DNA of 64,000 bases from Clostridia bacterium (GTDB lineage Bacteria > Bacillota > Clostridia > UMGS1883), in NCBI GenBank assembly GCA_045591265.1, contig JAZNSQ010000014.1, forward strand, positions 69,386 to 133,385, given 5' to 3'. Position 1 is the first letter of the stretch. Each line of letters begins with the position of its first letter. A model generated the notes under the pieces. It searched no databases, was not told where the DNA came from, and saw nothing but the letters and a program-made list of their open reading frames with translations. This document shows positions 1,950-41,357 of this stretch, piece after piece. The position numbers were made by a program, and so were the translations under genes.

Positions 1950-2216
1950 ATGCACACCCCGAAATCGATAAACCTCCATATGCGGAATTCGAATAGTTAG
2001 CTCAAAACAGGCGAACCTGCGGCACACACCCGAAAGTGCTTATCGCTGCTCGGTTCCCCGCCTGACGAGGTTCACACCCCAAGCGTTGCGCAGGACCCAT
2101 TCGTCAACACTACTTTTCCGACCCTGCCATACAGAAAGCCTACCTCAATCGGGGAATCTACCTCCGCTGTAGCGGACTGCGGATTCAGGGAACCGCTACC
2201 TCCCCGGCTGGCACAT
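1950..2216 (-). ncRNA. ffs: Large (Bacillus/Clostridium-type) signal recognition particle RNA
   Basis: Minus strand has Alu-domain GGGGAGGTAGCGGT, GTGTTGACGAATGGGTCCTGCGCAA and domain IV TCAGGCGGGGAACCGAGCAGC; upstream of dnaX as in B. subtilis. Confidence 0.93.
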
Positions 2217-10897: not shown

Positions 10898-10917
10898 ATT
10901 CTCACCTCACAATAAAT

Positions 10918-11010
10918 AATAAAAAGGGATTCTTTGTCCATAGACACAAAGAATCCCGAGTTTTTTGTAGGAATACTTCCTCGGCAGGTCTTATTTTTAC
11001 GCCTGCTGTC
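10918..11010 (-). promoter_or_regulatory. L10 leader with attenuator terminator
   Basis: AGACAGCAGG...CCTGCCGAGG motif, then GGGATTCTTTGT..ACAAAGAATCCC-TTTTT; promoter TTGACA-17-TATTAT at 11064..11036. Confidence 0.85.
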
Positions 11011-11067
11011 TATGGAAAATTTAACTCACGTGTATATAATACACGATTGTTTTTGATTTGTCAACAA

Positions 11068-24677: not shown

Positions 24678-25694
24678 GTGAAAACAATGTCAATCGTATT
24701 TGATTACTACTATGGTAGTGAGGCAGAGCAATTTACATTTTACAGAATACCAAAATTGCTTATGACCTCGCCGGAATTTAAGCGTGTGTCTGATAGTGCA
24801 AAATTGTTGTATGGTCTAATGCTTGACCGAATGAGCCTATCCATTAAAAACGGTTGGCTTGATGAACAGCAACGAGCATATATCTACTTCACAACAAATG
24901 ATGTTATAGAACAGATGTGTTGTGGTACAGAAAAGGCTACAAAGCTAATGGCAGAGCTTGACAGCGAAAAAGGTATTGGTCTTATAGAACGAAAAAAACA
25001 AGGGCAAGGCAAACCTACGATTATCTATCTCAAAAACTTTATTATTAACAATACTGAGCATCGAAATTCAAGACTTTCGGAAATCGAAAGTCAAGACTTC
25101 GGGAAATCGAAAGTCAAGACTTTTGATAATCAAAATTCAAGAGTTTCGGAAATCGAAAATGCAGACTTTCGACAATCGAAATGTAGTGATAATAATATAA
25201 GTGATAATAAAGAGAATGAAACTGATTTTAATAAGACTATCCTATCATATCCTATCAAAAATGATAATAGTGTGTGTTCGTCTGCTCCAACACAACCACC
25301 CGATATGATACGATGGATTGAAGAAAGAAATACTTATGAACAGCTAATAAAAAGAAATATTGAGTATGACATAATCGTTAAGGAGTACACGGCAGAATGG
25401 CTTGACGAGATTGTGGAGCTGATGGTTGATGTTGTTTGTAGCAAAGAGCCTTATATCCGTATCAACAAACAAGACTATCCACAGGAAATTGTTAAAAGCA
25501 GATTTTTGAAGATTGACAGTTCACACATTGAATATATCAATTTTGCATTAAAAGAAAACACCTCAAATGTCCGTAATATACGGGCATTTTTAATTACCAC
25601 AATATATCGTTCCTTTGAAACCGCTGATAATTGGTACTCCGCAAAAGTAAAACACGATATGGCACACCCTAAAAAGAATTGGAGCGATAGTTGA
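24678..25694 (+). CDS. repA: Replication initiator RepA_N with DUF6017-like C-terminus
   Basis: FYRIPKLL, AKLLYGLMLDRMSLSIKNGWLDE, YIYFT, QGQGKPTIIY; C-terminal SRFLKIDSSHIEY. Confidence 0.88.
   Translation: MKTMSIVFDYYYGSEAEQFTFYRIPKLLMTSPEFKRVSDSAKLLYGLMLDRMSLSIKNGWLDEQQRAYIYFTTNDVIEQMCCGTEKATKLMAELDSEKGIGLIERKKQGQGKPTIIYLKNFIINNTEHRNSRLSEIESQDFGKSKVKTFDNQNSRVSEIENADFRQSKCSDNNISDNKENETDFNKTILSYPIKNDNSVCSSAPTQPPDMIRWIEERNTYEQLIKRNIEYDIIVKEYTAEWLDEIVELMVDVVCSKEPYIRINKQDYPQEIVKSRFLKIDSSHIEYINFALKENTSNVRNIRAFLITTIYRSFETADNWYSAKVKHDMAHPKKNWSDS
25068..25182 (+). repeat. Five 23-bp iteron-like direct repeats inside repA
   Basis: tcaagactttcggaaatcgaaag-like units at 25068, 25091, 25114, 25137, 25160. 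Confidence 0.85.
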
Positions 25695-27592: not shown

Positions 27593-27727
27593 ATGACTTG
27601 GCTATGGATTATATTGGCTTTTATTGCCGGAGGTATTTTCGGTGTCGTAATGATGTGCTGCTTTATTGTAGCCGGACAGGAGGACGAAAGACTTGAAAAA
27701 CTTAATACAGATAATGCCGACATCTAA
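27593..27727 (+). CDS. DUF3789-like small membrane protein (44 aa)
   Basis: Hand translation MTWLWIILAFIAGGIFGVVMMCCFIVAGQEDERLEKLNTDNADI. Confidence 0.7.
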   Translation: MTWLWIILAFIAGGIFGVVMMCCFIVAGQEDERLEKLNTDNADI

Positions 27728-27765
27728 TAAAAAGAGTGTCGGCTTTTTTTATGGAGGTAAACACT

Positions 27766-31903: not shown

Positions 31904-34900
31904 ATGGCTTCTACTGTTAAAGCCATAACTGCTGTATCGCTTGAAACTATGGAAAGGCTGTCTAATTATGAAAATTGGACGGCTTTTTTAAGTTCAGCAG
32001 CTTGGCAATTCAAATATCCCTTTGCAGACCAAATCCTTATATACGCACAACGACCACACGCAACGGCTTGTGGAACTTTTGAATTTTGGCACGAAAACAA
32101 GAGTTGGTATCGTTGGATAAGAAAAGGTGTTGAGGGTATTGCACTTCTTCGTGAAACAAATAAAGGATATAAATTGGAATATGTATATGATGTTTCAGAT
32201 ACACGAAGTATGGACGGCAAAAGATTTTATCTATGGCAGTATGACAGCCGCTTGGAAGATGCTGTCATAGAAACACTTGAAAATACCTTTGGAGAATTAA
32301 CCGATAAAACTACTCTTGAAGATGCCATAATAAACGCTGCAAGGATAGCTGTTGAGGACAGCAAGGCTGATTACTTGGCAGAGCTGAAATATGCAAAGGA
32401 AAACAGCTTTTTAGAGGACTTGGACGAATTTAATATTGATGTAGAGTTCCAAAGAATAGCTGAAGCATCTGTTGCATTTATGATAATGCAACGATTAAAT
32501 CTGAAACCGCAAGAGATTTTTGAGCGTGAGGATTTTCAAGCTATTGCCGATTTCAATACACCCGAAGTCATAAATGTTTTGGGTAGTGCTGTAAGCAGTA
32601 TTGCAGAACAAGGCATAAGAGAAATATCCAAAACCGTTATTGCGGAAAAAAGAAAATTAAGAGAGCAAGCAAAATTTTTTGCAAAAGAAAATAATCCTGT
32701 ATATAATAATGATAAACAGGAAGACCTTAACGACAATGAAAATATGGAAAGGAATGATGAAAGTGTCAGCACAGATAACCTACACTCAGATAGGAGATTA
32801 CAAGTACCCGAACTTGACAGCTCCGACACACAACAAACCGATAGGCAAATACGGCAGACTTCGGAGAACATATCTGAAAGAGAATCGCCCCTGTCTGTAC
32901 TCGATGATGTTGATAAAGGGACAGATATTACAACATCTGTCGGAGATAGACGAACAAGCGAGAACACAGGTACAGGAATTGATAACAGCGATGGCACAGA
33001 GCAACGGAGTGAACGAGGAACTGAAAGCGAAAGACCCGATGAAATGGACGGGACTTATGAACAATCTTCGCCATTCAGCGGAGGAAATCGTGCTTCGGGA
33101 GTTGGTGTACAGCTAAGTTTTCTGCTCCCCACCGAAGAAGAACAAATAAATAGCCTTGAACAGCGAAAAGCAGAGCGAGATAATCGTTCTGCTTTTTCGC
33201 TTTCACAGGAAGAAATTGATGCTGTTTTACAAGAAGGTAGCGATTTTACACACGGCAAATATCGCATTTATGAGCTTTTTACAGGAATAAGCACATTAAA
33301 AGAACGAGCTGAATTTCTTAAAAAGGAATATGGACACGGCGGTAAAGGTTTTACTTTTGCAGATGGCACAAATGGATATGTAAGCTCTAACGGCAAAGGT
33401 ATTCACATTTCAAAATATAACGATATGCTTCACCCCGATATAATTCTGAATTGGGAAACAGTTGCAAAATACATAGGAAATCTTGTAGCTTATGACCGCT
33501 ACTTATCGCCGGAAGAAAAAGAAAAATATCCTGCATACAAGGAAATGATGGCAGAATATACAGAGCGTAAAGAAATAGCAGATGAAATGAGAGCCATAGT
33601 TCGTGAGTATGACGAAACAAAGGCTGAAAGTTCAGAAGCTATCAATAGGTATGCTTGTATAGGTGCGATAGGAAGATTTCAAGAGGATAGAATCTCCTTT
33701 CACGGAAGAAAAAAAGAGGGCGAAAGTGTTACGGCTATCATTATGGACGGCTTTAATACCATTATTAAAAATGAGCCGGAAAAATATTCAGAGCGTATCG
33801 GACTTGTAATTAAAAGAGCTATACCATACTTGGATATTCCTAATGTTGAAAAGCAGCAAGAGGAATATGACTTGTCTGCTGTTATCGAACAGGCTAAACA
33901 AATTCTTACCAAAGCGGAATATGTTGTTGATGATGAAATTATCAATTATGCAATCGACCATAAACTGAAAAATGACGGTGTTACAGCACCTAACGCAGAA
34001 CAAGTTGCAGAAGCCTATGAGCAAGTGCTGATTGATAATGAAAAAGACAACCTTTCTTCTCTTTCTTCCTACGACAGATACAAACATCTGAAAGAAGAAA
34101 ACCCCGACAGCGTTGTTATAGTGCAGCTTGGAGATTTCTATGAGTTCTATGGCAAAGATGCTGAAATAATTGCAGAGCTTAGAGATTTGCATATTACAGG
34201 CAAAGTTACTGCAAGCGGAGAGCGTGTTTCAATGTGCGGTGTTCCTGCACACGCATTAGAAGCAAATATTGAAGCATTACAGAACAACGGATATGCTGTT
34301 GTTGTAAACAGCATTGATACAGACACAGGCGAAATTACAATAAATCATTATGGCAGTAATGTACAGCAAGAAAAAGAGCCTACTATAAGAGAGATTTTTG
34401 ACGAATACGCTCCGCTTATTGTCAGCAAGGTTTTGAACGATGAAGCCTATGTCAATGCTTGCTATAATTCCGATGAACAAAATGCAAGACTTGAATGTGA
34501 TGAAGCTGTAAAGCGAGCTGTTATGAGCTTACCATTTGAAGAAAACGCATCACTTCATAAGCTGTATTATGATATGGCTGAATTTCATAGACGGCTTGAA
34601 TCACACGCATTTGAGAAAACTTATGAGCTTATCCTGTATGAAAAGGACTTACCTGTTTATGACCGTGAAACAGAAATTATCGGAGATATTCTGTCTGCTA
34701 TCGGAAGAAATGATGTGCAAATGGAATTTGACGATAACGGCATAGTTGGTGTTGCTCCCGATAAGAGAATGGCAGGACAAGAATTTTATCAATTCCTTAT
34801 CAATGAGGTTTTGTTGGATATTGGTGGACTAAATCTGTTCAAGCTCACAGACAAGAATTTGAACGATTTTAAGGATTTAATGTTTCATCACGGTATGGAA

Positions 34901-37900
34901 GATGCCTATAACAAGGCTATTGAAATACGCATACCAAAGGAAATCAGAGATATTGGGAAACCCCAAACTGCTCCCGAAAAACCACAAAGCAACACATACG
35001 AACATAGAAACTATGTTTTACTCAAAAAACTTGCTCCCGAAATACTAAGTAAAGAAAGCAGTTATATTCATTTTGTAGCCGGAAGTGCAATAATGCCCCT
35101 TACTGTTGAACACCTATCGGGAAATCGTATTGCTGTTTCTCATTATTACAAACAAGACGGTGATTCGATTGCAGACCCCGATATGGAGTTTGTTTTCGAT
35201 AATGAAAATGAAACCTTAACGGCGGTGTCGTTTCAACAAGGGAGCTTTTATCAGACAACCGAAACACCAAACGGAATAAATAAAACATTGGAGCGTGAGC
35301 TTAATTCTTTTGCTAATCAATGGTTTAGAAATAATGACAGCTACGGATTTGTAAAAGAAATTCAAAAAGTTAAATGGCAAGACGAAACAATAGAATTAAC
35401 CTTTAATAAGGACGGAGATATTACTTCTATTGTCGGTACACAAGAAACTGTTTCTGACTATGTTGAAACTCATAATTTAGACCTTGTACAGATTTCAACA
35501 GATACTTACGGTATTCTTGCCCCCTCTGCTCCCGAAGAAGAACAAACCGAAGAAATCTCCGAAGCTGAAGCTCACGACAAGCGTAATTTTCATATTGTCA
35601 ACGATAATATCGGACACGGTACAAAAGAAGAAAAATACGAAGCCAATGTTGCTGCTATCAGAACACTAAAACAGATTGAAAGCGAGAACAGATTAGCAAC
35701 ACCCGAAGAACAGGAAATCCTATCCGGCTATGTTGGTTGGGGCGGTTTGGATTCTTGCTTTGATGAAAACAACAAGCATTATGCAGAACTGAAAGAACTT
35801 CTGACCGAAGAAGAATATACATCTGCTAACGCAAGTGTATTGACAGCTTTTTACACACCGCCTGTTATAATGCGTTCAATGTATAAAGCATTGGATAATA
35901 TAGGATTTAAGACAGGAAACATTTTAGACCCCTCTTGTGGTACAGGACATTTTATGGGTACACTTCCCGACAGTATGCAAGACAGTAAAATGTACGGTGT
36001 TGAGCTTGACAGCATAAGCGGTAGAATTGCCCGACAGCTCTATCAGAAAAATAACATTGAGATACGAGGTTATGAGGACAGCACACTTCCTAACAGCTAT
36101 TTTGATGTTGCAATCGGTAATGTACCTTTTGGCGGTTATAAGGTATTTGACAGCGAATATAACAAGTACAATTTTCTCATACACGATTATTTTTTCGCTA
36201 AATCCATTGACAAAGTTCGCTCCGGCGGTGTTATAGCCTTTATAACTACTAACGGCATAGGTGGCGGTACAATGGATAAAGCTGATGACCGTGTACGAAG
36301 ATATATAGCCGAGCGTTGCGACCTTATCGGAGCTGTACGCTTACCGATAAATGCCTTTTCAGAAAATGCAGGAACAAAAACCAATACAGACATTGTTTTT
36401 CTTCAAAAATTGGACTATATCCGAAATCTTGAAGAAGATGCTCCCGATTGGATTGATACAGATGTATTCTATGAAAATGACTACACGGACAACGAGGGTA
36501 ACACAACGCACAATATTCTGACTATCAATAAATACTTCACACAGCACCCCGAAATGGTACTTGGAAATCTTGAAGTTATCTCCGGCCCATACGGTCCGCA
36601 GCTTGTTTGTCAACCGAACAATGACACAAGCCTTGCGGAACAGCTTGGGCGAGCTATCGAAAACCTTGAAGCAGAAATACCCGAATATGATATTGAAAGC
36701 AGTTCAGATTATGAGGTTACATCTATTCCTGCTGACCCCGATGTTAAAAATTTCAGTTATACATTGGTTGAGGGTGAAATTTACTTCCGTGAAAATGGCT
36801 TAATGCACAAGGTTGAGGTAAACAGAACAGCAGCAAGTCGTATTAAAGGATTGATTGAACTTCGTGATTGTACATATAAGCTGATAGATTTACAGCTACA
36901 CGATGCAACTAACGAATCAATCACAGAACAGCAAGCGGAGCTTAACAAGCTGTACGATGCGTATGTGCAAAAATATGACCGTATCAATTCAAGAGGAAAC
37001 GAAATGGCATTTTCTGATGACGGTAGTTATTATCTTCTATGTTCTTTGGAAGTGCTTGATAACAAAGGTAATTTTGAGCGTAAAGCTGATATGTTCACTA
37101 AAAGAACAATTAAAAATTATACCCCTGTTCAATCGGTGGAAACGGCTGTTGAAGCATTAGAGGTGTCTATATCAGAAAGAGCTTTAGTTGATATGGGATT
37201 TATGTCGAGCTTATCCGGCAAAACCTTTGACGAGCTTGAAGAAGATTTGCAAGGTATTATTTTCAGAGATATAAAATGCCCTACAAATGTTGAGGAATTT
37301 GTTGGCGATGATGAAATGCTGCACAAATACCTTTTTGTTACGGCAGACGAATATCTTTCGGGCGATGTAAGACTAAAGCTGAAAATGGCTGAAGCTATGC
37401 GAGAAGCACAACCCGACCATAAAAAGCATTTGGTTGATGCCAACATCGCCGCATTGAAAGAGGTGCAACCGAAAGACCTTGAAGCAAGCGAAATTGCCGT
37501 GCGTTTGGGAACACATTGGATTCCGACAGAGGTTTACAGGCAGTTTATATTTGATTTGCTTGAAACTCCCGAACAATATCAAGATGACATAGATGTTCTG
37601 TATTCTGACATTACAGGCGATTGGAATGTAACAGGAAAAAGTGCTGACAGGAGCGATAATGTAAGAGCAAATGTTACCTATGGAACAAGTCGAGTAAATG
37701 CTTATTGGCTGATTCAAGATTGTTTGAGGTTTAAGAACAGCAAGGTTTATGACAAAGACAGAAACGGAAAACCCATAATAAACGAAACCGAAACGGCTGC
37801 AGCACAGGAACGGCAGGAACTTATCCGTGAAGCCTTTAAGGATTGGATATGGAAAGACCCCGACAGACGAGAAATGCTGACAAAGTTCTATAACGAAACA

Positions 37901-40462
37901 ATGAACAATATCAGACCACGAGAATATGACGGTAGCCATATTAAGTTTGTCGGTATGAATCCCGAAATCAGTTTGCTCCCACATCAGCGTGATGCTGTTG
38001 CAAGAGGTATTTACGGTGGCAATACTCTTTTAGCTCATTGTGTAGGTGCAGGAAAAACATACGAAATGGCAGCTATCGCTATGGAAGCAAAAAGACTTGG
38101 CTTGTGTCAAAAGAGTATGTTTGTAGTTCCTAATGCCCTTGTCGGACAATGGGCAGCAGAAATCTATTCCTTATATCCGGCAGCAAATATCTTGGTTGCA
38201 ACAAAGAAAGACTTTGAAGCTAAAAACCGTAAAAAGTTTTGTGCAAGAATAGCAACAGGCAATTATGATGCCGTAATAATCGGACACAGCCAATTAGTCA
38301 AAATTCCTATTTCCTATGAGCGACAAGTGGCATTACTGCAACACGAAATTCACGAAATTTCTGAGGGTATAAAAAGGTTAAAGATTGAGAAAAATGAGGG
38401 ATTTTCAGTAAAACAGCTTGAAAAGACTAAGAAAAATCTCTTAGACAAATTGAAAAGGCTGACAGAAGCTCCCAAAAAGGATAATGTCGTATCGTTTGAA
38501 CAGCTTGGTGTAGATAAGCTGTTTATTGATGAATCAGACGAGTTCAAAAACCTCTATCTTTATTCCAAAATGACAGATGTTGCCGGAATAACACAGACAG
38601 TAGCACAAAAAGCAACAGACCTTTATATGAAATGCAGATACATTGACGAGCTGACAGATTATAAAGGAAATGTACACGCAACAGGAACACCTATCTCAAA
38701 TTCTATGGTTGAGCTTTACACCATACAGCGATATTTGCAGTATAACGAGCTTGAAAAGCGTGGATTTATTCATTTTGATGCGTGGGCAGCACAATTTGGA
38801 GAAACCGTAACAGCTATGGAGCTTGCCCCCGAAGGAACAGGCTATCGTATGAAAACAAGATTTGCAAAGTTCAATAACATACCCGAACTAATGGCTATGT
38901 TCAAAGAGGTTGCAGATATAAAGACAAGCGATATGCTTAATCTCCCTGTACCCGAAAAGGAGCTTATAAATGTAAAAGTTGTAGCGAGTGATGACCAAAA
39001 AGAATATGTTGCAGACTTAGCTGACCGTGCTGAAGATGTGCGAGATAGAAAAGTTAAGCCGTATGAGGATAATATGCTGAAAATCACAAATGACGGCAGA
39101 AAACTTGCACTCGACCAAAGGCTTGTAAATCCTCTGTACCCCGATGAAGAAATCAGTAAAATAAACACGGCAATAGGAAACATTTTCAGCATTTGGGAAG
39201 AAACAACTGCTGATAGATGTACACAGCTTGTTTTCTGTGATTTATCTACTCCGACACAAGACCATTCATTTAATGTCTATGACGATATTCGTGATAAATT
39301 AGTGAAATTGGGTGTGCCGAGAGAAGAAATCGCATTTATTCACGAAGCAACGACAGAAACTAAAAGAGCTGAATTATTTGCATCTGTAAAATGCGGTGAT
39401 GTTCGTGTGCTTATCGGCTCTACAAAGAAAATGGGAGCCGGTATGAATGTACAGGACAGATTGATTGCTTTACACAATCTTGACTGCCCTTGGCGACCAC
39501 GAGATATGGAACAGCGTATGGGGCGAATTGTACGGCGAGGTAATATGAATAAAAAGGTGCGTTTATATCAGTATGTTACTGAAGATACATTCGACAGCTA
39601 TAACTATCAGATACTTGAAAATAAGCAGCGTTTCATATCACAGATAATGACGAGCAAATCTCCTGCCCGTTCTGCTGATGACATTGATAACGACACATTG
39701 ACCTATGCAGAAGTAAAGGCACTTGCAACAGGAAATCCTTTAATAAAGGAAAAAATGGAGCTTGAAACTATTGTGCAGAAATTAAAGGTTAGTCGTAACA
39801 ACTATGAAAATCAGCATTACCGTCTTGAAGATGCTATTTTGAAGTACATTCCGTCAAAGATAGCAACGGCAAAGGGTAAAATTGCAGTTCATCAAAAAGA
39901 CATTGCTTTTATAACGGAATACAAAGAGAAAACTCCCTTACCCGAAAAAAGTAATTTCTACGGTATGACAATTCAAGATATAAAGTACACAGAAAAAGCA
40001 GATGCCGGAAAAGCATTACTTGAAGCTCTTGATAAGCACCGTTCTCTTGATGAAATATATCTCGGTGAATATATGGGGTTTGCTTTGTACGGTAACAGTT
40101 CTCCTTACCTCTTGACAGAGCATAAGCTGATTTTACGAAAAAACACATCTTATGAGCTTACTTTGGGTGATGATATTTACGGTAACATTCAGAGAATTGA
40201 CAACGCATTGTCGGGCATTACCGATAAAATCGCCTATTGGGAAAACGAGCTTAAAGAAAGTGAAAAGGCACTTGAACAATCTAAAATTGAGTTTGCAAAG
40301 CCGTTTGACCGTGAAGAAGAATATCAAGCTCATACTGCACGATTAGCAGAGCTAAACGCACTTTTAACGGTTAAAAAGGAAAAGCCGATTATTGATACAA
40401 CTATTTCCGAAGAAGATGTATCAGAGCAAGACAAAAAAAGAAATAAAGAATTAGAAAGGTAG
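31904..40462 (+). CDS. Giant DarB-like protein: ArdC-like N-domain, MutS-I-like domain, N6-adenine MTase, SF2 helicase
   Basis: KYPFADQILIYAQRPHAT; QLGDFYEFYGKDA; LDPSCGTGHF and GNVPFG; AHCVGAGKT, FIDESDEF, ATGTPISN, QRMGRIVRRGN. Confidence 0.92.
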   Translation: MASTVKAITAVSLETMERLSNYENWTAFLSSAAWQFKYPFADQILIYAQRPHATACGTFEFWHENKSWYRWIRKGVEGIALLRETNKGYKLEYVYDVSDTRSMDGKRFYLWQYDSRLEDAVIETLENTFGELTDKTTLEDAIINAARIAVEDSKADYLAELKYAKENSFLEDLDEFNIDVEFQRIAEASVAFMIMQRLNLKPQEIFEREDFQAIADFNTPEVINVLGSAVSSIAEQGIREISKTVIAEKRKLREQAKFFAKENNPVYNNDKQEDLNDNENMERNDESVSTDNLHSDRRLQVPELDSSDTQQTDRQIRQTSENISERESPLSVLDDVDKGTDITTSVGDRRTSENTGTGIDNSDGTEQRSERGTESERPDEMDGTYEQSSPFSGGNRASGVGVQLSFLLPTEEEQINSLEQRKAERDNRSAFSLSQEEIDAVLQEGSDFTHGKYRIYELFTGISTLKERAEFLKKEYGHGGKGFTFADGTNGYVSSNGKGIHISKYNDMLHPDIILNWETVAKYIGNLVAYDRYLSPEEKEKYPAYKEMMAEYTERKEIADEMRAIVREYDETKAESSEAINRYACIGAIGRFQEDRISFHGRKKEGESVTAIIMDGFNTIIKNEPEKYSERIGLVIKRAIPYLDIPNVEKQQEEYDLSAVIEQAKQILTKAEYVVDDEIINYAIDHKLKNDGVTAPNAEQVAEAYEQVLIDNEKDNLSSLSSYDRYKHLKEENPDSVVIVQLGDFYEFYGKDAEIIAELRDLHITGKVTASGERVSMCGVPAHALEANIEALQNNGYAVVVNSIDTDTGEITINHYGSNVQQEKEPTIREIFDEYAPLIVSKVLNDEAYVNACYNSDEQNARLECDEAVKRAVMSLPFEENASLHKLYYDMAEFHRRLESHAFEKTYELILYEKDLPVYDRETEIIGDILSAIGRNDVQMEFDDNGIVGVAPDKRMAGQEFYQFLINEVLLDIGGLNLFKLTDKNLNDFKDLMFHHGMEDAYNKAIEIRIPKEIRDIGKPQTAPEKPQSNTYEHRNYVLLKKLAPEILSKESSYIHFVAGSAIMPLTVEHLSGNRIAVSHYYKQDGDSIADPDMEFVFDNENETLTAVSFQQGSFYQTTETPNGINKTLERELNSFANQWFRNNDSYGFVKEIQKVKWQDETIELTFNKDGDITSIVGTQETVSDYVETHNLDLVQISTDTYGILAPSAPEEEQTEEISEAEAHDKRNFHIVNDNIGHGTKEEKYEANVAAIRTLKQIESENRLATPEEQEILSGYVGWGGLDSCFDENNKHYAELKELLTEEEYTSANASVLTAFYTPPVIMRSMYKALDNIGFKTGNILDPSCGTGHFMGTLPDSMQDSKMYGVELDSISGRIARQLYQKNNIEIRGYEDSTLPNSYFDVAIGNVPFGGYKVFDSEYNKYNFLIHDYFFAKSIDKVRSGGVIAFITTNGIGGGTMDKADDRVRRYIAERCDLIGAVRLPINAFSENAGTKTNTDIVFLQKLDYIRNLEEDAPDWIDTDVFYENDYTDNEGNTTHNILTINKYFTQHPEMVLGNLEVISGPYGPQLVCQPNNDTSLAEQLGRAIENLEAEIPEYDIESSSDYEVTSIPADPDVKNFSYTLVEGEIYFRENGLMHKVEVNRTAASRIKGLIELRDCTYKLIDLQLHDATNESITEQQAELNKLYDAYVQKYDRINSRGNEMAFSDDGSYYLLCSLEVLDNKGNFERKADMFTKRTIKNYTPVQSVETAVEALEVSISERALVDMGFMSSLSGKTFDELEEDLQGIIFRDIKCPTNVEEFVGDDEMLHKYLFVTADEYLSGDVRLKLKMAEAMREAQPDHKKHLVDANIAALKEVQPKDLEASEIAVRLGTHWIPTEVYRQFIFDLLETPEQYQDDIDVLYSDITGDWNVTGKSADRSDNVRANVTYGTSRVNAYWLIQDCLRFKNSKVYDKDRNGKPIINETETAAAQERQELIREAFKDWIWKDPDRREMLTKFYNETMNNIRPREYDGSHIKFVGMNPEISLLPHQRDAVARGIYGGNTLLAHCVGAGKTYEMAAIAMEAKRLGLCQKSMFVVPNALVGQWAAEIYSLYPAANILVATKKDFEAKNRKKFCARIATGNYDAVIIGHSQLVKIPISYERQVALLQHEIHEISEGIKRLKIEKNEGFSVKQLEKTKKNLLDKLKRLTEAPKKDNVVSFEQLGVDKLFIDESDEFKNLYLYSKMTDVAGITQTVAQKATDLYMKCRYIDELTDYKGNVHATGTPISNSMVELYTIQRYLQYNELEKRGFIHFDAWAAQFGETVTAMELAPEGTGYRMKTRFAKFNNIPELMAMFKEVADIKTSDMLNLPVPEKELINVKVVASDDQKEYVADLADRAEDVRDRKVKPYEDNMLKITNDGRKLALDQRLVNPLYPDEEISKINTAIGNIFSIWEETTADRCTQLVFCDLSTPTQDHSFNVYDDIRDKLVKLGVPREEIAFIHEATTETKRAELFASVKCGDVRVLIGSTKKMGAGMNVQDRLIALHNLDCPWRPRDMEQRMGRIVRRGNMNKKVRLYQYVTEDTFDSYNYQILENKQRFISQIMTSKSPARSADDIDNDTLTYAEVKALATGNPLIKEKMELETIVQKLKVSRNNYENQHYRLEDAILKYIPSKIATAKGKIAVHQKDIAFITEYKEKTPLPEKSNFYGMTIQDIKYTEKADAGKALLEALDKHRSLDEIYLGEYMGFALYGNSSPYLLTEHKLILRKNTSYELTLGDDIYGNIQRIDNALSGITDKIAYWENELKESEKALEQSKIEFAKPFDREEEYQAHTARLAELNALLTVKKEKPIIDTTISEEDVSEQDKKRNKELER
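32679..32707 (+). promoter_or_regulatory. Intragenic SigA promoter for nested TnpV
   Basis: TTGCAA(32679)-17bp-TATAAT(32702). Confidence 0.75.
32763..33116 (+). CDS. tnpV: TnpV-family protein nested in +1 frame of the giant gene
   Basis: ITYTQIGDYKYPNL...IGKYGRLRRTYLKENRP..LY...HLSEIDEQA...GVNEELKAKDPMKWTGLMNNLRHSAEEIVLRELVY; SD AAAGGA 9 nt before GTG. Confidence 0.88.
   Translation: MSAQITYTQIGDYKYPNLTAPTHNKPIGKYGRLRRTYLKENRPCLYSMMLIKGQILQHLSEIDEQARTQVQELITAMAQSNGVNEELKAKDPMKWTGLMNNLRHSAEEIVLRELVYS
33163..33203 (+). terminator. Intragenic intrinsic terminator after tnpV
   Basis: AAAAGCAGAGCGA-GATAA-TCGTTCTGC-TTTTTCGCTTT. Confidence 0.75.
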
Positions 40463-41295: not shown

Positions 41296-41357
41296 GAAAG
41301 TCTGCTGAAAACGGCAGACTTTTTCTTATGCAAAAAAATATTTTTTTACGAGGTCAG

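What the first reader, a model, noticed from the sequence alone, without database searches (positions are those of the whole stretch)
32679..33203. Complete TnpV transcription unit nested inside the giant helicase-methylase ORF (dual coding)
Seen: the 2852-aa ORF stays open while its +1 frame holds a full-length TnpV-family CDS (32763-33116). This CDS has its own promoter (TTGCAA-17-TATAAT, 32679-32707), an SD (AAAGGA, 9 nt before GTG) and an intrinsic terminator 47 nt after its stop (33163-33203). The host frame reads the cassette as a low-complexity linker between the ArdC-like domain and the rest. Established: TnpV (Tn4451) is of unknown function, and B. subtilis-type Firmicutes uncouple transcription from translation, so intragenic terminators can act. 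Inference: the cassette is a domesticated insertion whose terminator attenuates the downstream 7 kb. That would separate ArdC-domain and TnpV expression from methylase-helicase expression, with TnpV a possible regulator or antiterminator.
Basis: partly seen in the sequence, partly recalled or inferred. Interest (0 to 1): 0.85.

Follow-up and report, generated by a model that had tools for sequence, protein, structure and literature searches.

The report
TnpV gene nested inside giant ORF
A complete, conserved small gene (tnpV) with its own ribosome-binding site, a likely promoter and a terminator-like hairpin is written in a second reading frame inside the flexible linker of a 2,852-residue conjugative-element protein. 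The same double coding recurs in every related element examined, so it is a selected arrangement that standard annotation gets wrong.

Summary
Window 32763-33116 is a full-length TnpV gene (Pfam E 6.5e-41) in the +1 frame of the 31904-40462 ORF.

The double coding is not chance. Synonymous resampling of TnpV predicts 11 host-frame stops (0 of 20,000 samples have none). Standalone tnpV genes carry a mean of 7.8 stops in that frame. In contrast, 57 of 80 TnpV loci from different species, and 80 of 80 loci retrieved through the N-terminal domain alone, have both frames intact.

TnpV is the frame under protein selection. The host frame is only kept stop-free and hydrophilic, and AlphaFold models it as disordered exactly over the cassette.

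- **Ribosome-binding site:** GAAAGGAG, 7-9 nt before the start, is present in all 56 nested genome loci where it was looked for and in 75 of 80 metagenome loci.
- **Hairpin:** a GC-rich hairpin plus T-run follows TnpV in about 75% of loci, against 5% of background windows, with compensatory and synonymous covariation.
- **Promoter:** TTGnnn-17-TATnnT is conserved in about half of the loci, including this window's clade.

No usable RNA data exist, so promoter and terminator activity and any attenuation of the downstream 7 kb remain inference. I found no published description. I class it as a new variant of same-strand nested genes combined with the internal terminators of Gram-positive conjugation operons.

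The parts
31904..40462 (+). Giant host ORF (2852 aa): N-terminal ArdC-like domain, disordered linker, folded module, MutS_I, DUF6908, Eco57I-type N6-adenine methylase, SNF2/ResIII helicase with Helicase_C
   Evidence: Lies in a conjugative element with RepA_N, ParA/ParB, relaxase, T4 coupling protein and a VirB4-like ATPase.
31904..32695 (+). Host residues 1-264: confidently folded N-terminal domain, ArdC-like by fold
   Evidence: AF2 pLDDT about 90. Best PDB match is ArdC of R388, 6sna_A, E 0.012, prob 1.0, TM 0.39 on the target. No Pfam or PDB sequence hit.
32679..32707 (+). Sigma-A-type promoter-like site TTGCAA-17-TATAAT (-35 at 32679-32684, -10 at 32702-32707); predicted transcription start near 32714
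   Evidence: TTGnnn-17-TATnnT is positionally conserved in 24 of 58 nested genome loci, always in the same host frame. The sixth T is kept although the encoded residue varies (N, A, D, S, P, H) and T3 usage is only 15-25% in the higher-GC loci. 47 of 80 metagenome loci have TTGnnn-17-TAnnnT.
32696..33130 (+). Host residues 265-409: disordered acidic and Gly-rich linker, which is the host-frame reading of the tnpV cassette
   Evidence: pLDDT about 30 exactly over this span. Host-frame amino-acid identity between relatives (0.36) is no higher than in the non-coding third frame (0.38). Hydrophobic residues are 20.6%, against 32.2% in the same frame of standalone genes.
32747..32753 (+). Shine-Dalgarno GAAAGGA for tnpV (read as Glu-Arg in the host frame)
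   Evidence: GAAAGG(A/G), mostly GAAAGGAG, lies 7-9 nt before the start in all 56 nested genome loci examined (L028 excluded) and in 75 of 80 metagenome loci.
32763..33116 (+). tnpV CDS, +1 frame, 117 aa, GTG start (alternative in-frame ATGs at 32754 and 32757)
   Evidence: Pfam PF14198, E 6.5e-41, full length. PHROG 24764. AF2 pLDDT 86.5, a beta-hairpin plus five helices. Codon-position entropy 0.83/0.68/1.17 matches the pattern of standalone genes.
33163..33203 (+). Intrinsic-terminator-like element: A-run, 9-bp GC-rich stem 33170-33178 / 33184-33192, 5-nt loop, T5 at 33193-33197
   Evidence: Family-wide enrichment is 44 of 58 against 108 of 2117 background windows, and 59 of 80 in the second set. 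Covariation: 34 compensatory cells against 9.1+-2.3 in shuffles, 0 of 500. More stable than synonymous resamples in 33 of 33 distinct hairpins.
33134..33583 (+). Host residues 411-560: folded module that resumes just after tnpV (LPTEEEQI..AE..SAFS..IDxVL..GKYRIY..)
   Evidence: pLDDT 84-91. Conserved in alignment A1.

Best explanation
tnpV is a genuine same-strand nested gene. Its whole coding sequence lies in the +1 frame of the interdomain linker of the conjugative element's giant multidomain (polyvalent-type) protein.

Shown:
- TnpV is the frame under amino-acid selection.
- The host frame is selected only to stay free of stops and to be hydrophilic. It therefore yields a disordered tether between the ArdC-like N-domain and the rest of the protein.

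Strongly inferred: TnpV is translated by independent internal initiation at a conserved SD, GAAAGGAG-N7-9-ATG/GTG.

Inferred:
- In this window and in about half of the family, a sigma-A promoter at the end of the N-domain coding region starts a short transcript.
- A conserved hairpin plus U-run 12-115 nt after the tnpV stop ends that transcript. tnpV can thus be expressed as its own small unit, independently of the 8.6-kb gene.
- Polymerases coming from upstream must read through this hairpin to make the giant protein, either by partial read-through or by an antitermination-competent state, as in pLS20-type conjugation operons. The hairpin would then insulate or attenuate the downstream 7 kb.

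Origin (inferred): an ancestral free-standing tnpV, of the kind found next to TnpX-type recombinases, was engulfed when translation of the upstream gene came to run through its -1 frame into the downstream gene.
For: Dual coding:
-. Zero host-frame stops in 59 of 59 nested copies, against a mean of 7.8 in standalone copies. Resampling gives no stop-free sample in 20,000.
- 80 of 80 loci retrieved by N-domain peptide patterns alone carry an intact full-length TnpV.

Selection on the TnpV frame:
- the codon-position pattern equals that of standalone genes. Identity is 0.56 in the TnpV frame, 0.36 in the host frame and 0.38 in the third frame.
- confident fold.
- against the closest relative, 19 of 37 differences fall on TnpV third positions.

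Linker: pLDDT about 30 over residues 265-409 only; composition.

SD.

Promoter.

Hairpin: (76% against 5%). The hairpin stays with tnpV even where the downstream host module is different (L036, L063, L068).

Precedent: internal terminators, a gene-specific weak promoter and antitermination in Gram-positive conjugation operons (PMC8955417, PMC8191782, PMC11658703). The window's element has further terminator-like hairpins along its co-directional gene array.
Against: - There is no transcript or protein evidence. The RNA runs available are low-depth assembled contigs.
- In 'organism K' a single RNA contig crosses tnpV and the hairpin, so termination is at most partial, or DNA is present in the library.
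- The promoter motif is absent from a large clade that still has the hairpin. The hairpin is absent or different in about a quarter of loci.
- Termination inside an ORF would produce stop-less mRNAs for the host frame, which is costly.
- No antitermination factor or RNA was detected.
- The 80 metagenome loci were ranked with a query that included the linker, so relatives without it may have ranked lower.
Confidence: 0.8

Rival explanations
1. There is no real giant protein. The locus is three genes (N-domain gene, tnpV, helicase-methylase gene), as NCBI's pipeline draws it, and the open host frame across tnpV is incidental.
For: PGAP-annotated relatives call TnpV, start the large protein inside the 3' end of tnpV and leave the N-domain unannotated. 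A host-frame ATG or GTG is forced by TnpV's conserved Lys-Trp (inferred by reading the sequence, and alignments A1/A2).
Against: The host frame has no stop after the N-domain in any of 139 nested loci, while the same frame of standalone tnpV has 1-12 stops. P(0 stops) is below 5e-5 for this gene. The composition of that frame is shifted towards a hydrophilic linker.
Confidence: 0.04
2. The TnpV frame is reached by programmed +1 ribosomal frameshifting from the host frame, with the SD-like GAAAGGAG as stimulator. This would give an N-domain-TnpV fusion rather than free TnpV.
For: An in-frame N-domain-TnpV fusion protein exists on one metagenome contig (P0213). Internal SD-like sequences stimulate frameshifting in prfB and dnaX (own knowledge).
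Against: An ATG or GTG sits at the canonical 7-9 nt after the SD in essentially all loci. Several nested loci have a stop in the TnpV frame within about 30-40 nt upstream of that start (for example L006, L007, L027, L034, L062). No conserved slippery site was seen. P0213 is a single short contig.
Confidence: 0.04
3. The conserved hairpin is not a transcription terminator. It would serve another RNA or DNA role: a 3'-end stabiliser after processing, a ribosome pause site for folding of the giant protein, or a structure used in single-stranded DNA during transfer.
For: - No 3'-end data exist, and RNA contigs cross the hairpin.
- Some loci have weak T-runs, for example TTCTTCC in L055 and TTCCGTC in L020.
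- Loops are often long.
- The hairpin persists in clades without an evident internal promoter.
Against: - The T-run immediately 3' of the stem is present in about 75% of loci and is orientation-specific.
- The stem is GC-rich with dG -12 to -28 kcal/mol.
- The position tracks the tnpV stop, not a particular host module.
- 'Escaped' standalone copies L039 and L040 carry a strong hairpin plus T-run 6 nt after the stop.
Confidence: 0.2
4. The nested TnpV ORF is an unexpressed relic or a chance ORF.
For: Gene callers based on the longest ORF do not call it. The window's own TnpV sequence did not appear among the database hits.
Against: - Full-length Pfam match.
- Intact in 139 loci at 45-60% pairwise identity, with a normal coding signature.
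- Conserved SD and start codon.
- Confident predicted fold.
Confidence: 0.01

Closest known systems
comS inside srfAB of Bacillus subtilis (own knowledge)
   Same: A small gene lies wholly inside a very large gene on the same strand in a shifted frame, and is translated from its own SD and start codon.
   Different: comS is a 46-aa lineage-specific peptide without a promoter or terminator of its own. Here the nested gene is a 117-aa member of a widespread Pfam family, conserved over hundreds of species, with a likely promoter and a terminator-like hairpin. The overlapped host segment is a disordered linker, not an enzymatic domain.
Rz1 inside Rz of phage lambda, and genes B, K and E of phiX174 (own knowledge)
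   Same: Complete same-strand nesting in an alternative frame, with both products functional.
   Different: Those are phage genes under genome-size pressure and have no internal transcription unit. Here the host is an 8.6-kb gene of a conjugative element, and only one of the two frames is under amino-acid selection.
pLS20-type conjugation operons with internal terminators, gene-specific weak promoters and conAn processive antitermination (PMC8955417, PMC8191782); Tn916 termination and antitermination (PMC11658703)
   Same: A long co-directional conjugation gene array carries intrinsic terminators. A gene inside the operon has its own weak promoter, and its transcripts stop at the next terminator, while main-promoter transcripts read through.
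   Different: In the descriptions I read, those signals belong to separate genes within the operon; those papers were not checked for signals lying inside coding sequence. Here promoter, gene and terminator all lie inside one ORF. No conAn-like factor was detected in the window.
TnpV of Tn4451/Tn4453 and Tn6104-type elements (PMC3158075)
   Same: Same protein family (PF14198). Mobile-element context. Function unknown; once proposed to be Xis-like.
   Different: Those copies are free-standing genes next to TnpX-type large serine recombinases, as in standalone loci L021 and L045. Their -1 frame is full of stops.
Polyvalent proteins of conjugative elements (PMC5512222)
   Same: A giant multidomain protein with an ArdC-N-like domain, a methylase and an SNF2 helicase in a conjugative element.
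   Different: A term search of that paper found no mention of TnpV, overlapping, frameshift, linker or low-complexity. The recurrent 'linker motif' of these proteins is shown here to be the shadow of tnpV in another frame.

Membership tests
TnpV (Pfam PF14198) | Full-length match above the gathering score | tested here: met
   139.2 bits against a cutoff of 27, profile 1-111 of 111.
TnpV (Pfam PF14198) | Family-invariant residues kept (Y9, P18, G30, L61, E87, K90, W97, G99, N102, A108-E110 in the numbering of A2) | tested here: met
   Alignment A2 with 23 annotated or called TnpV proteins.
Same-strand overlapping (overprinted) gene pair | Both frames open over the whole overlap, beyond chance | tested here: met
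Same-strand overlapping (overprinted) gene pair | Both frames kept intact in divergent homologues | tested here: met
   57 of 80 TnpV-retrieved loci and 80 of 80 N-domain-retrieved loci.
Same-strand overlapping (overprinted) gene pair | Nested gene has its own translation-initiation signals | tested here: met
   Conserved GAAAGGAG-N7-9-ATG/GTG.
Same-strand overlapping (overprinted) gene pair | Both products detected (Ribo-seq or proteomics) | not testable with these tools
   No such data are reachable.
Intrinsic (Rho-independent) terminator | GC-rich stem-loop immediately followed by a U-run | tested here: met
   9-bp stem (5 G-C pairs), 5-nt loop, T5. Not listed by the consensus scan; probably its stem extension consumes the T-run (not tested).
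Intrinsic (Rho-independent) terminator | Structure conserved by compensatory change | tested here: met
   8 of 10 pairs have double changes, and 0 of 500 shuffles reach the observed value. Median synonymous-resampling z is -2.8.
Intrinsic (Rho-independent) terminator | RNA 3' ends or a coverage drop at the U-run | tested here: inconclusive
   Only assembled RNA contigs are available. There is a twofold depth step near the hairpin in X53, but a through-contig in X41, X44 and X45.
Sigma-A (sigma-70-type) promoter | -35 and -10 hexamers with 17-nt spacing | tested here: met
   TTGCAA-17-TATAAT, 10 of 12 matches.
Sigma-A (sigma-70-type) promoter | Conserved beyond coding constraints | tested here: inconclusive
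   Conserved at the same position in 24 of 58 genome loci and about 47 of 80 metagenome loci, with T kept at variable-codon third positions. Absent in a large clade.
Sigma-A (sigma-70-type) promoter | Mapped transcription start | not testable with these tools
   No 5'-end data.
ArdC N-terminal domain (host residues 1-264) | Sequence match to the family model | tested here: not met
   No Pfam hit even at E 10. No PDB sequence hit with profile A1.
ArdC N-terminal domain (host residues 1-264) | Fold similarity to solved ArdC | tested here: inconclusive
   Top Foldseek hit is 6sna_A (ArdC of R388), E 0.012, prob 1.00, TM 0.39 on the target.
Polyvalent protein of conjugative elements | Several unrelated effector domains in one polypeptide, encoded in a conjugative element | tested here: met
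   MutS_I, DUF6908, Eco57I-type methylase, SNF2/ResIII and Helicase_C. Element genes.

The most novel reading that the evidence does not exclude
The cassette is a complete, selectively insulated transcription unit inside an ORF.

- Transcripts from the internal promoter, translated only in the TnpV frame, stop at the hairpin.
- Polymerases from the element's main promoter pass it because they are antitermination-modified, or because they are shielded by ribosomes reading the host frame.
- One stretch of DNA would thus give constitutive TnpV and tightly gated giant protein. TnpV might itself feed back on read-through or on handling of the giant protein.
- As a corollary, the 'conserved linker' of a whole class of polyvalent proteins would exist because of a gene in another frame.
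Probability: 0.3. Interest if true: 0.85.

Novelty: new variant of a known kind. Interest (0 to 1): 0.72.

Why it matters
1. It is one of the best-supported bacterial examples of a long (118-codon) same-strand nested gene. It is kept in all 139 nested loci examined, from dozens of species' genomes and gut and other metagenomes, at 45-60% TnpV identity.

2. Promoter-like, SD and terminator-like signals are maintained inside a coding sequence through synonymous and variable sites. That makes testable the question of how intragenic terminators are tolerated or exploited in Firmicutes, where transcription and translation may be uncoupled.

3. It explains a recurrent 'linker motif' in giant conjugative-element proteins as the shadow of another gene.

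4. It exposes a systematic annotation error. Longest-ORF callers drop tnpV, while NCBI's pipeline keeps tnpV and truncates or drops the giant gene.

5. It ties TnpV, of unknown function since Tn4451, physically to the anti-restriction, methylase and helicase protein. That gives a concrete lead for functional tests.

Tried and rejected
- **RNA evidence.** Only Logan contigs of low depth or flat depth were available. The three raw-read runs laid (X60, X62, X63, same species label) held none of the element. No boundaries could be read.
- **Function of TnpV.** Foldseek against the PDB gave nothing below E 1. NCBIfam gave no hit. PHROGs gave only a family of unknown function.
- **Antitermination factor or RNA in the window.** Rfam found only SRP RNA and an L10 leader. 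Pfam scans of the small neighbouring ORFs gave nothing relevant.
- **ArdC by sequence.** No Pfam or PDB-profile hit.
- **Antisense ORF 32536-32997.** Rejected as a third gene. That frame is stop-free in only 42% of nested loci.
- **Chance or compositional openness of the host frame.** Rejected.
- **Host-linker conservation as protein-level selection.** Rejected, because identity is no higher than in the non-coding frame.
- **Strongly suppressed variation in the overlap.** Not seen. Against the closest relative the overlap is more divergent than its flanks, probably through recombination.
- **Literature.** Searches for TnpV, for polyvalent proteins and for overlapping genes in conjugative elements found no description of the nesting.
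Full report
**1. What is in the window**

The + strand carries one 2852-codon ORF, 31904-40462. Pfam finds MutS_I, DUF6908, an Eco57I-type methylase and an SNF2/ResIII helicase with Helicase_C in it.

The ORF sits in a conjugative element. Its neighbours are RepA_N, ParA, ParB, a NikA/MobC-like protein, a relaxase, an SLH surface protein, a type IV coupling protein, a VirB4-like ATPase and an NlpC/P60 hydrolase.

In the +1 frame, 32679-33116 is open. From GTG 32763 it encodes 117 residues that match Pfam TnpV over the whole profile (E 6.5e-41).

- TTGCAA-17-TATAAT at 32679-32707 is the best promoter-like site in a 10.5-kb scan.
- GAAAGGA lies 9 nt before the GTG.
- A hairpin at 33170-33192 is followed by TTTTT. 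It folds at -27.7 kcal/mol with z -6.2.

The consensus terminator scan did not list the hairpin. My reading, not tested, is that its gap-free stem extension pairs the upstream A-run with the T-run and so leaves no tail.

**2. Is the double coding more than chance?**

I kept the TnpV protein fixed and resampled its synonymous codons with the ORF's own codon usage. This gives a mean of 11.3 stops in the host frame, and no stop-free sample in 20,000.

I then fetched 80 TnpV loci from different species' genomes.
- In 57 of them the frame -1 to TnpV has no stop. Where the contig allows, that frame belongs to an ORF of 1,800-3,300 codons that starts about 750-870 nt upstream.
- In the other 23 loci, tnpV stands alone and the same frame has 1-12 stops.
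- Over defined coding sequences, nested copies have 0 stops in 59 of 59. Standalone copies have a mean of 7.8 and none of 21 is stop-free.

The reverse test gave the same answer. I retrieved 80 metagenome loci through two peptide patterns of the N-terminal domain only. All 80 carry a full-length intact TnpV in the +1 frame and no host-frame stop. One caveat applies: ranking used a query that included the linker.

**3. Which frame is selected?**

Codon-position entropy in nested copies is 0.83 / 0.68 / 1.17. That is the same order as in standalone copies (0.86 / 0.66 / 1.41), with only the third position somewhat damped.

Pairwise amino-acid identity is 0.56 in the TnpV frame. It is 0.36 in the host frame, no better than the 0.38 of the non-coding third frame.

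So the recognisable 'linker motif' seen across giant-protein homologues (alignment A1) is the shadow of TnpV. The host frame is selected to stay open and to be hydrophilic: 20.6% hydrophobic residues, against 32.2% in that frame of standalone genes, although GC content also differs.

AlphaFold with A1 gives this picture:
- Residues 1-264 have pLDDT about 90.
- Residues 265-409 have pLDDT about 30. This span is nt 32696-33130, exactly the cassette.
- Residues 411-560 have pLDDT about 87.

TnpV itself models confidently (pLDDT 86.5) as a beta-hairpin plus five helices. It has no PDB neighbour.

The N-domain's best PDB match is ArdC of R388 (6sna, E 0.012, prob 1.0). It has no sequence-level hit. 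'ArdC-like' is therefore plausible but weak.

**4. Expression signals**

*Ribosome-binding site.* All 56 nested genome loci examined (L028 excluded) have GAAAGG(A/G), mostly GAAAGGAG, 7-9 nt before an in-frame ATG. Window, L001 and L070 use GTG at the homologous place. In the metagenome set 75 of 80 have it. In the host frame this is the nearly invariant Glu-Arg of the linker.

*Promoter.* TTGnnn-17-TATnnT lies 25-52 nt before the start in 24 of 58 genome loci, always in the same register. Tyr is always TAT, and the next codon always ends in T although its amino acid varies (N, A, D, S, P, H). T-ending codons make up only 15-25% in the higher-GC loci. In the metagenome set 47 of 80 have TTGnnn-17-TAnnnT. 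A large clade with a different upstream segment lacks the motif.

*Hairpin.*
- A stem of dG -12 kcal/mol or lower, followed by a T-run, lies within 170 nt after the tnpV stop in 44 of 58 genome loci. The figure for equal-sized windows elsewhere in the same giant ORFs is 108 of 2117, or 5%. In the metagenome set it is 59 of 80.
- Stems differ in sequence but keep pairing. One class of change is purely synonymous: Ala GCG or GCA covaries with Ser TCC or TCT.
- RNAalifold on 23 distinct sequences finds 10 pairs, 8 of them with double changes.
- The pair count gives 91.7% of cells paired and 34 compensatory cells, against 9.1+-2.3 in shuffles (0 of 500). All slid registers are far lower.
- All 33 distinct hairpins are more stable than synonymous resamples of the same host peptide, with median z -2.8. 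This test has some ascertainment bias.
- The hairpin follows tnpV even where the downstream host module is different (L036, L063, L068).

**5. What could not be shown**

The public RNA data that hold this or related elements are assembled contigs.
- For the window, two of four metatranscriptomes cover the tnpV segment better than its flanks. Depths are below 8 and the contig ends do not match the predicted boundaries.
- For a common human-gut relative (L103), one run shows a contig from just before the ORF start to 25 nt past the T-run at depth 18.6, followed by contigs at 5-13. Three other runs give one contig straight through.
- The three raw-read runs laid, which carry the same species label, do not contain the element.

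Promoter activity, termination and attenuation therefore remain inference. Read-through clearly can occur, or DNA is present in those libraries.

**6. Mechanism proposed**

Shown: dual coding with selection on TnpV and openness-only selection on the host linker.

Strongly inferred: independent initiation of TnpV at its SD.

Inferred: a short tnpV transcript from the internal promoter, ended by the hairpin.

The hairpin would also act on polymerases arriving from upstream, which must read through it to make the giant protein. Gram-positive conjugation operons are known to contain many internal intrinsic terminators. They also contain genes with their own weak promoter whose transcripts stop at the next terminator, while main-promoter transcripts pass through processive antitermination (PMC8955417, PMC8191782, PMC11658703). 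The window's element carries further terminator-like hairpins along its gene array. No antitermination factor was recognised.

An alternative route to read-through is shielding of the hairpin by ribosomes in the host frame. A ribosome in the TnpV frame stops 54 nt upstream and would leave the hairpin free.

**7. Origin**

Standalone tnpV genes sit next to TnpX-type large serine recombinases, DUF6809 genes or relaxases, as in Tn4451 and Tn6104 (PMC3158075).

In a neighbour-joining tree, most nested copies form one large group, with a few standalone copies inside it. One of these, L040, has only one host-frame stop and looks recently released. The window clade branches separately. The tree is short and weakly resolved.

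TnpV is folded and selected, while the host reading is disordered and unselected. The host reading is therefore most likely the younger, overprinting frame. A one-step 'insertion' of a ready cassette is unlikely, since a free tnpV carries about eight stops in that frame.

**8. Known or new?**

A full-text search finds TnpV only as a gene name in element descriptions. A term search of the polyvalent-protein survey found no mention of TnpV, overlapping, frameshift, linker or low-complexity. Searches on overlapping or overprinted genes in conjugative elements found nothing relevant.

Annotation practice shows the conflict. PGAP calls TnpV, starts the large protein inside tnpV's 3' end and leaves the N-domain blank, or lists no large gene at all. 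ORF-length callers give the long protein, and the window's own TnpV sequence was not among the TnpV hits in that database.

I class it as a new variant of known kinds: same-strand nested genes such as comS in srfAB or Rz1 in Rz, and internal terminators of conjugation operons.

**9. Verdict**

Dual coding, SD, promoter in this clade, terminator-like hairpin and disordered linker are supported. Attenuation, a regulatory role for TnpV and origin by insertion are unproven.
- Confidence in the core explanation is 0.8.
- For the separate steps: internal initiation about 0.85, promoter active in this window about 0.6, hairpin acts as a terminator about 0.6, attenuation of the giant gene about 0.4.

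Noticed in passing
P0213 (metagenome protein; aligned in A1): A 402-aa protein in which the N-terminal domain is fused in frame to a full TnpV, from one 2.2-kb contig. It is either a frameshift variant or a sequencing error. Its TnpV part equals P0018.
   Followed up: partly
L028:9590-10354: Rearranged copy. The sequence upstream of the TnpV ATG is replaced, there is no SD, and the TnpV frame stays open 410 nt further upstream. The giant frame opens only 22 nt before tnpV.
   Followed up: partly
window 32536-32997 (- strand): A 153-aa antisense ORF lies across tnpV. That antisense frame is stop-free in only 42% of nested loci (5% of standalone loci), so it looks like a by-product of avoiding stops in two sense frames.
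   Followed up: yes
window 32837-33066 compared with L001: Against the closest relative the tnpV segment differs at 10.5% of bases, while both flanks of the giant ORF differ at about 2%. This suggests a recombination patch confined to the cassette.
   Followed up: partly
L026 (giant ORF +3299) and L034 (giant ORF +2298); window 31956-31984: There are further strong hairpin plus T-run sites inside giant ORFs. The L026 and L034 pair (CGCCGCCGAGGG..CCCTCAGCGGCG) differs by compensatory changes. In the window, a -13.9 kcal/mol site lies 50 nt into the ORF.
   Followed up: no
window 23799-61851 (+ strand): Terminator-like hairpins follow ParB (27713-27746), the HTH gene (41297-41322), the SLH protein (50392-50413) and the NlpC/P60 gene (61807-61851). 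Several more lie inside genes, for example 51303, 55923 and 58317. This fits an operon with many internal terminators.
   Followed up: no
L163 (NZ_OY725736.1, Monoglobus pectinilyticus), L001, L002: RefSeq/PGAP annotation keeps 'TnpV protein' and either starts the large protein inside tnpV or lists no large gene. In L163 the giant frame is also broken near 14.9 kb.
   Followed up: partly
L103:2484-2512 (RNA run X41): Contig depth steps from 10.7 to 43 about 500 nt upstream of the giant ORF start. This is a possible operon promoter in a cultured carrier ('organism K').
   Followed up: no
window 1950-2216 (-) and 10912-11033 (-): SRP RNA and an L10 leader lie here, so the left part of the window is ordinary chromosome. 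The conjugative element begins further right; its first recognised gene is RepA_N at 24678.
   Followed up: no
L039:6527-6883, L040:1829-2206: These standalone tnpV genes branch inside the nested clade. L040 has a single stop in the former host frame, and both have a strong hairpin plus T-run 6 nt after the stop. They look like copies released from a giant ORF.
   Followed up: partly
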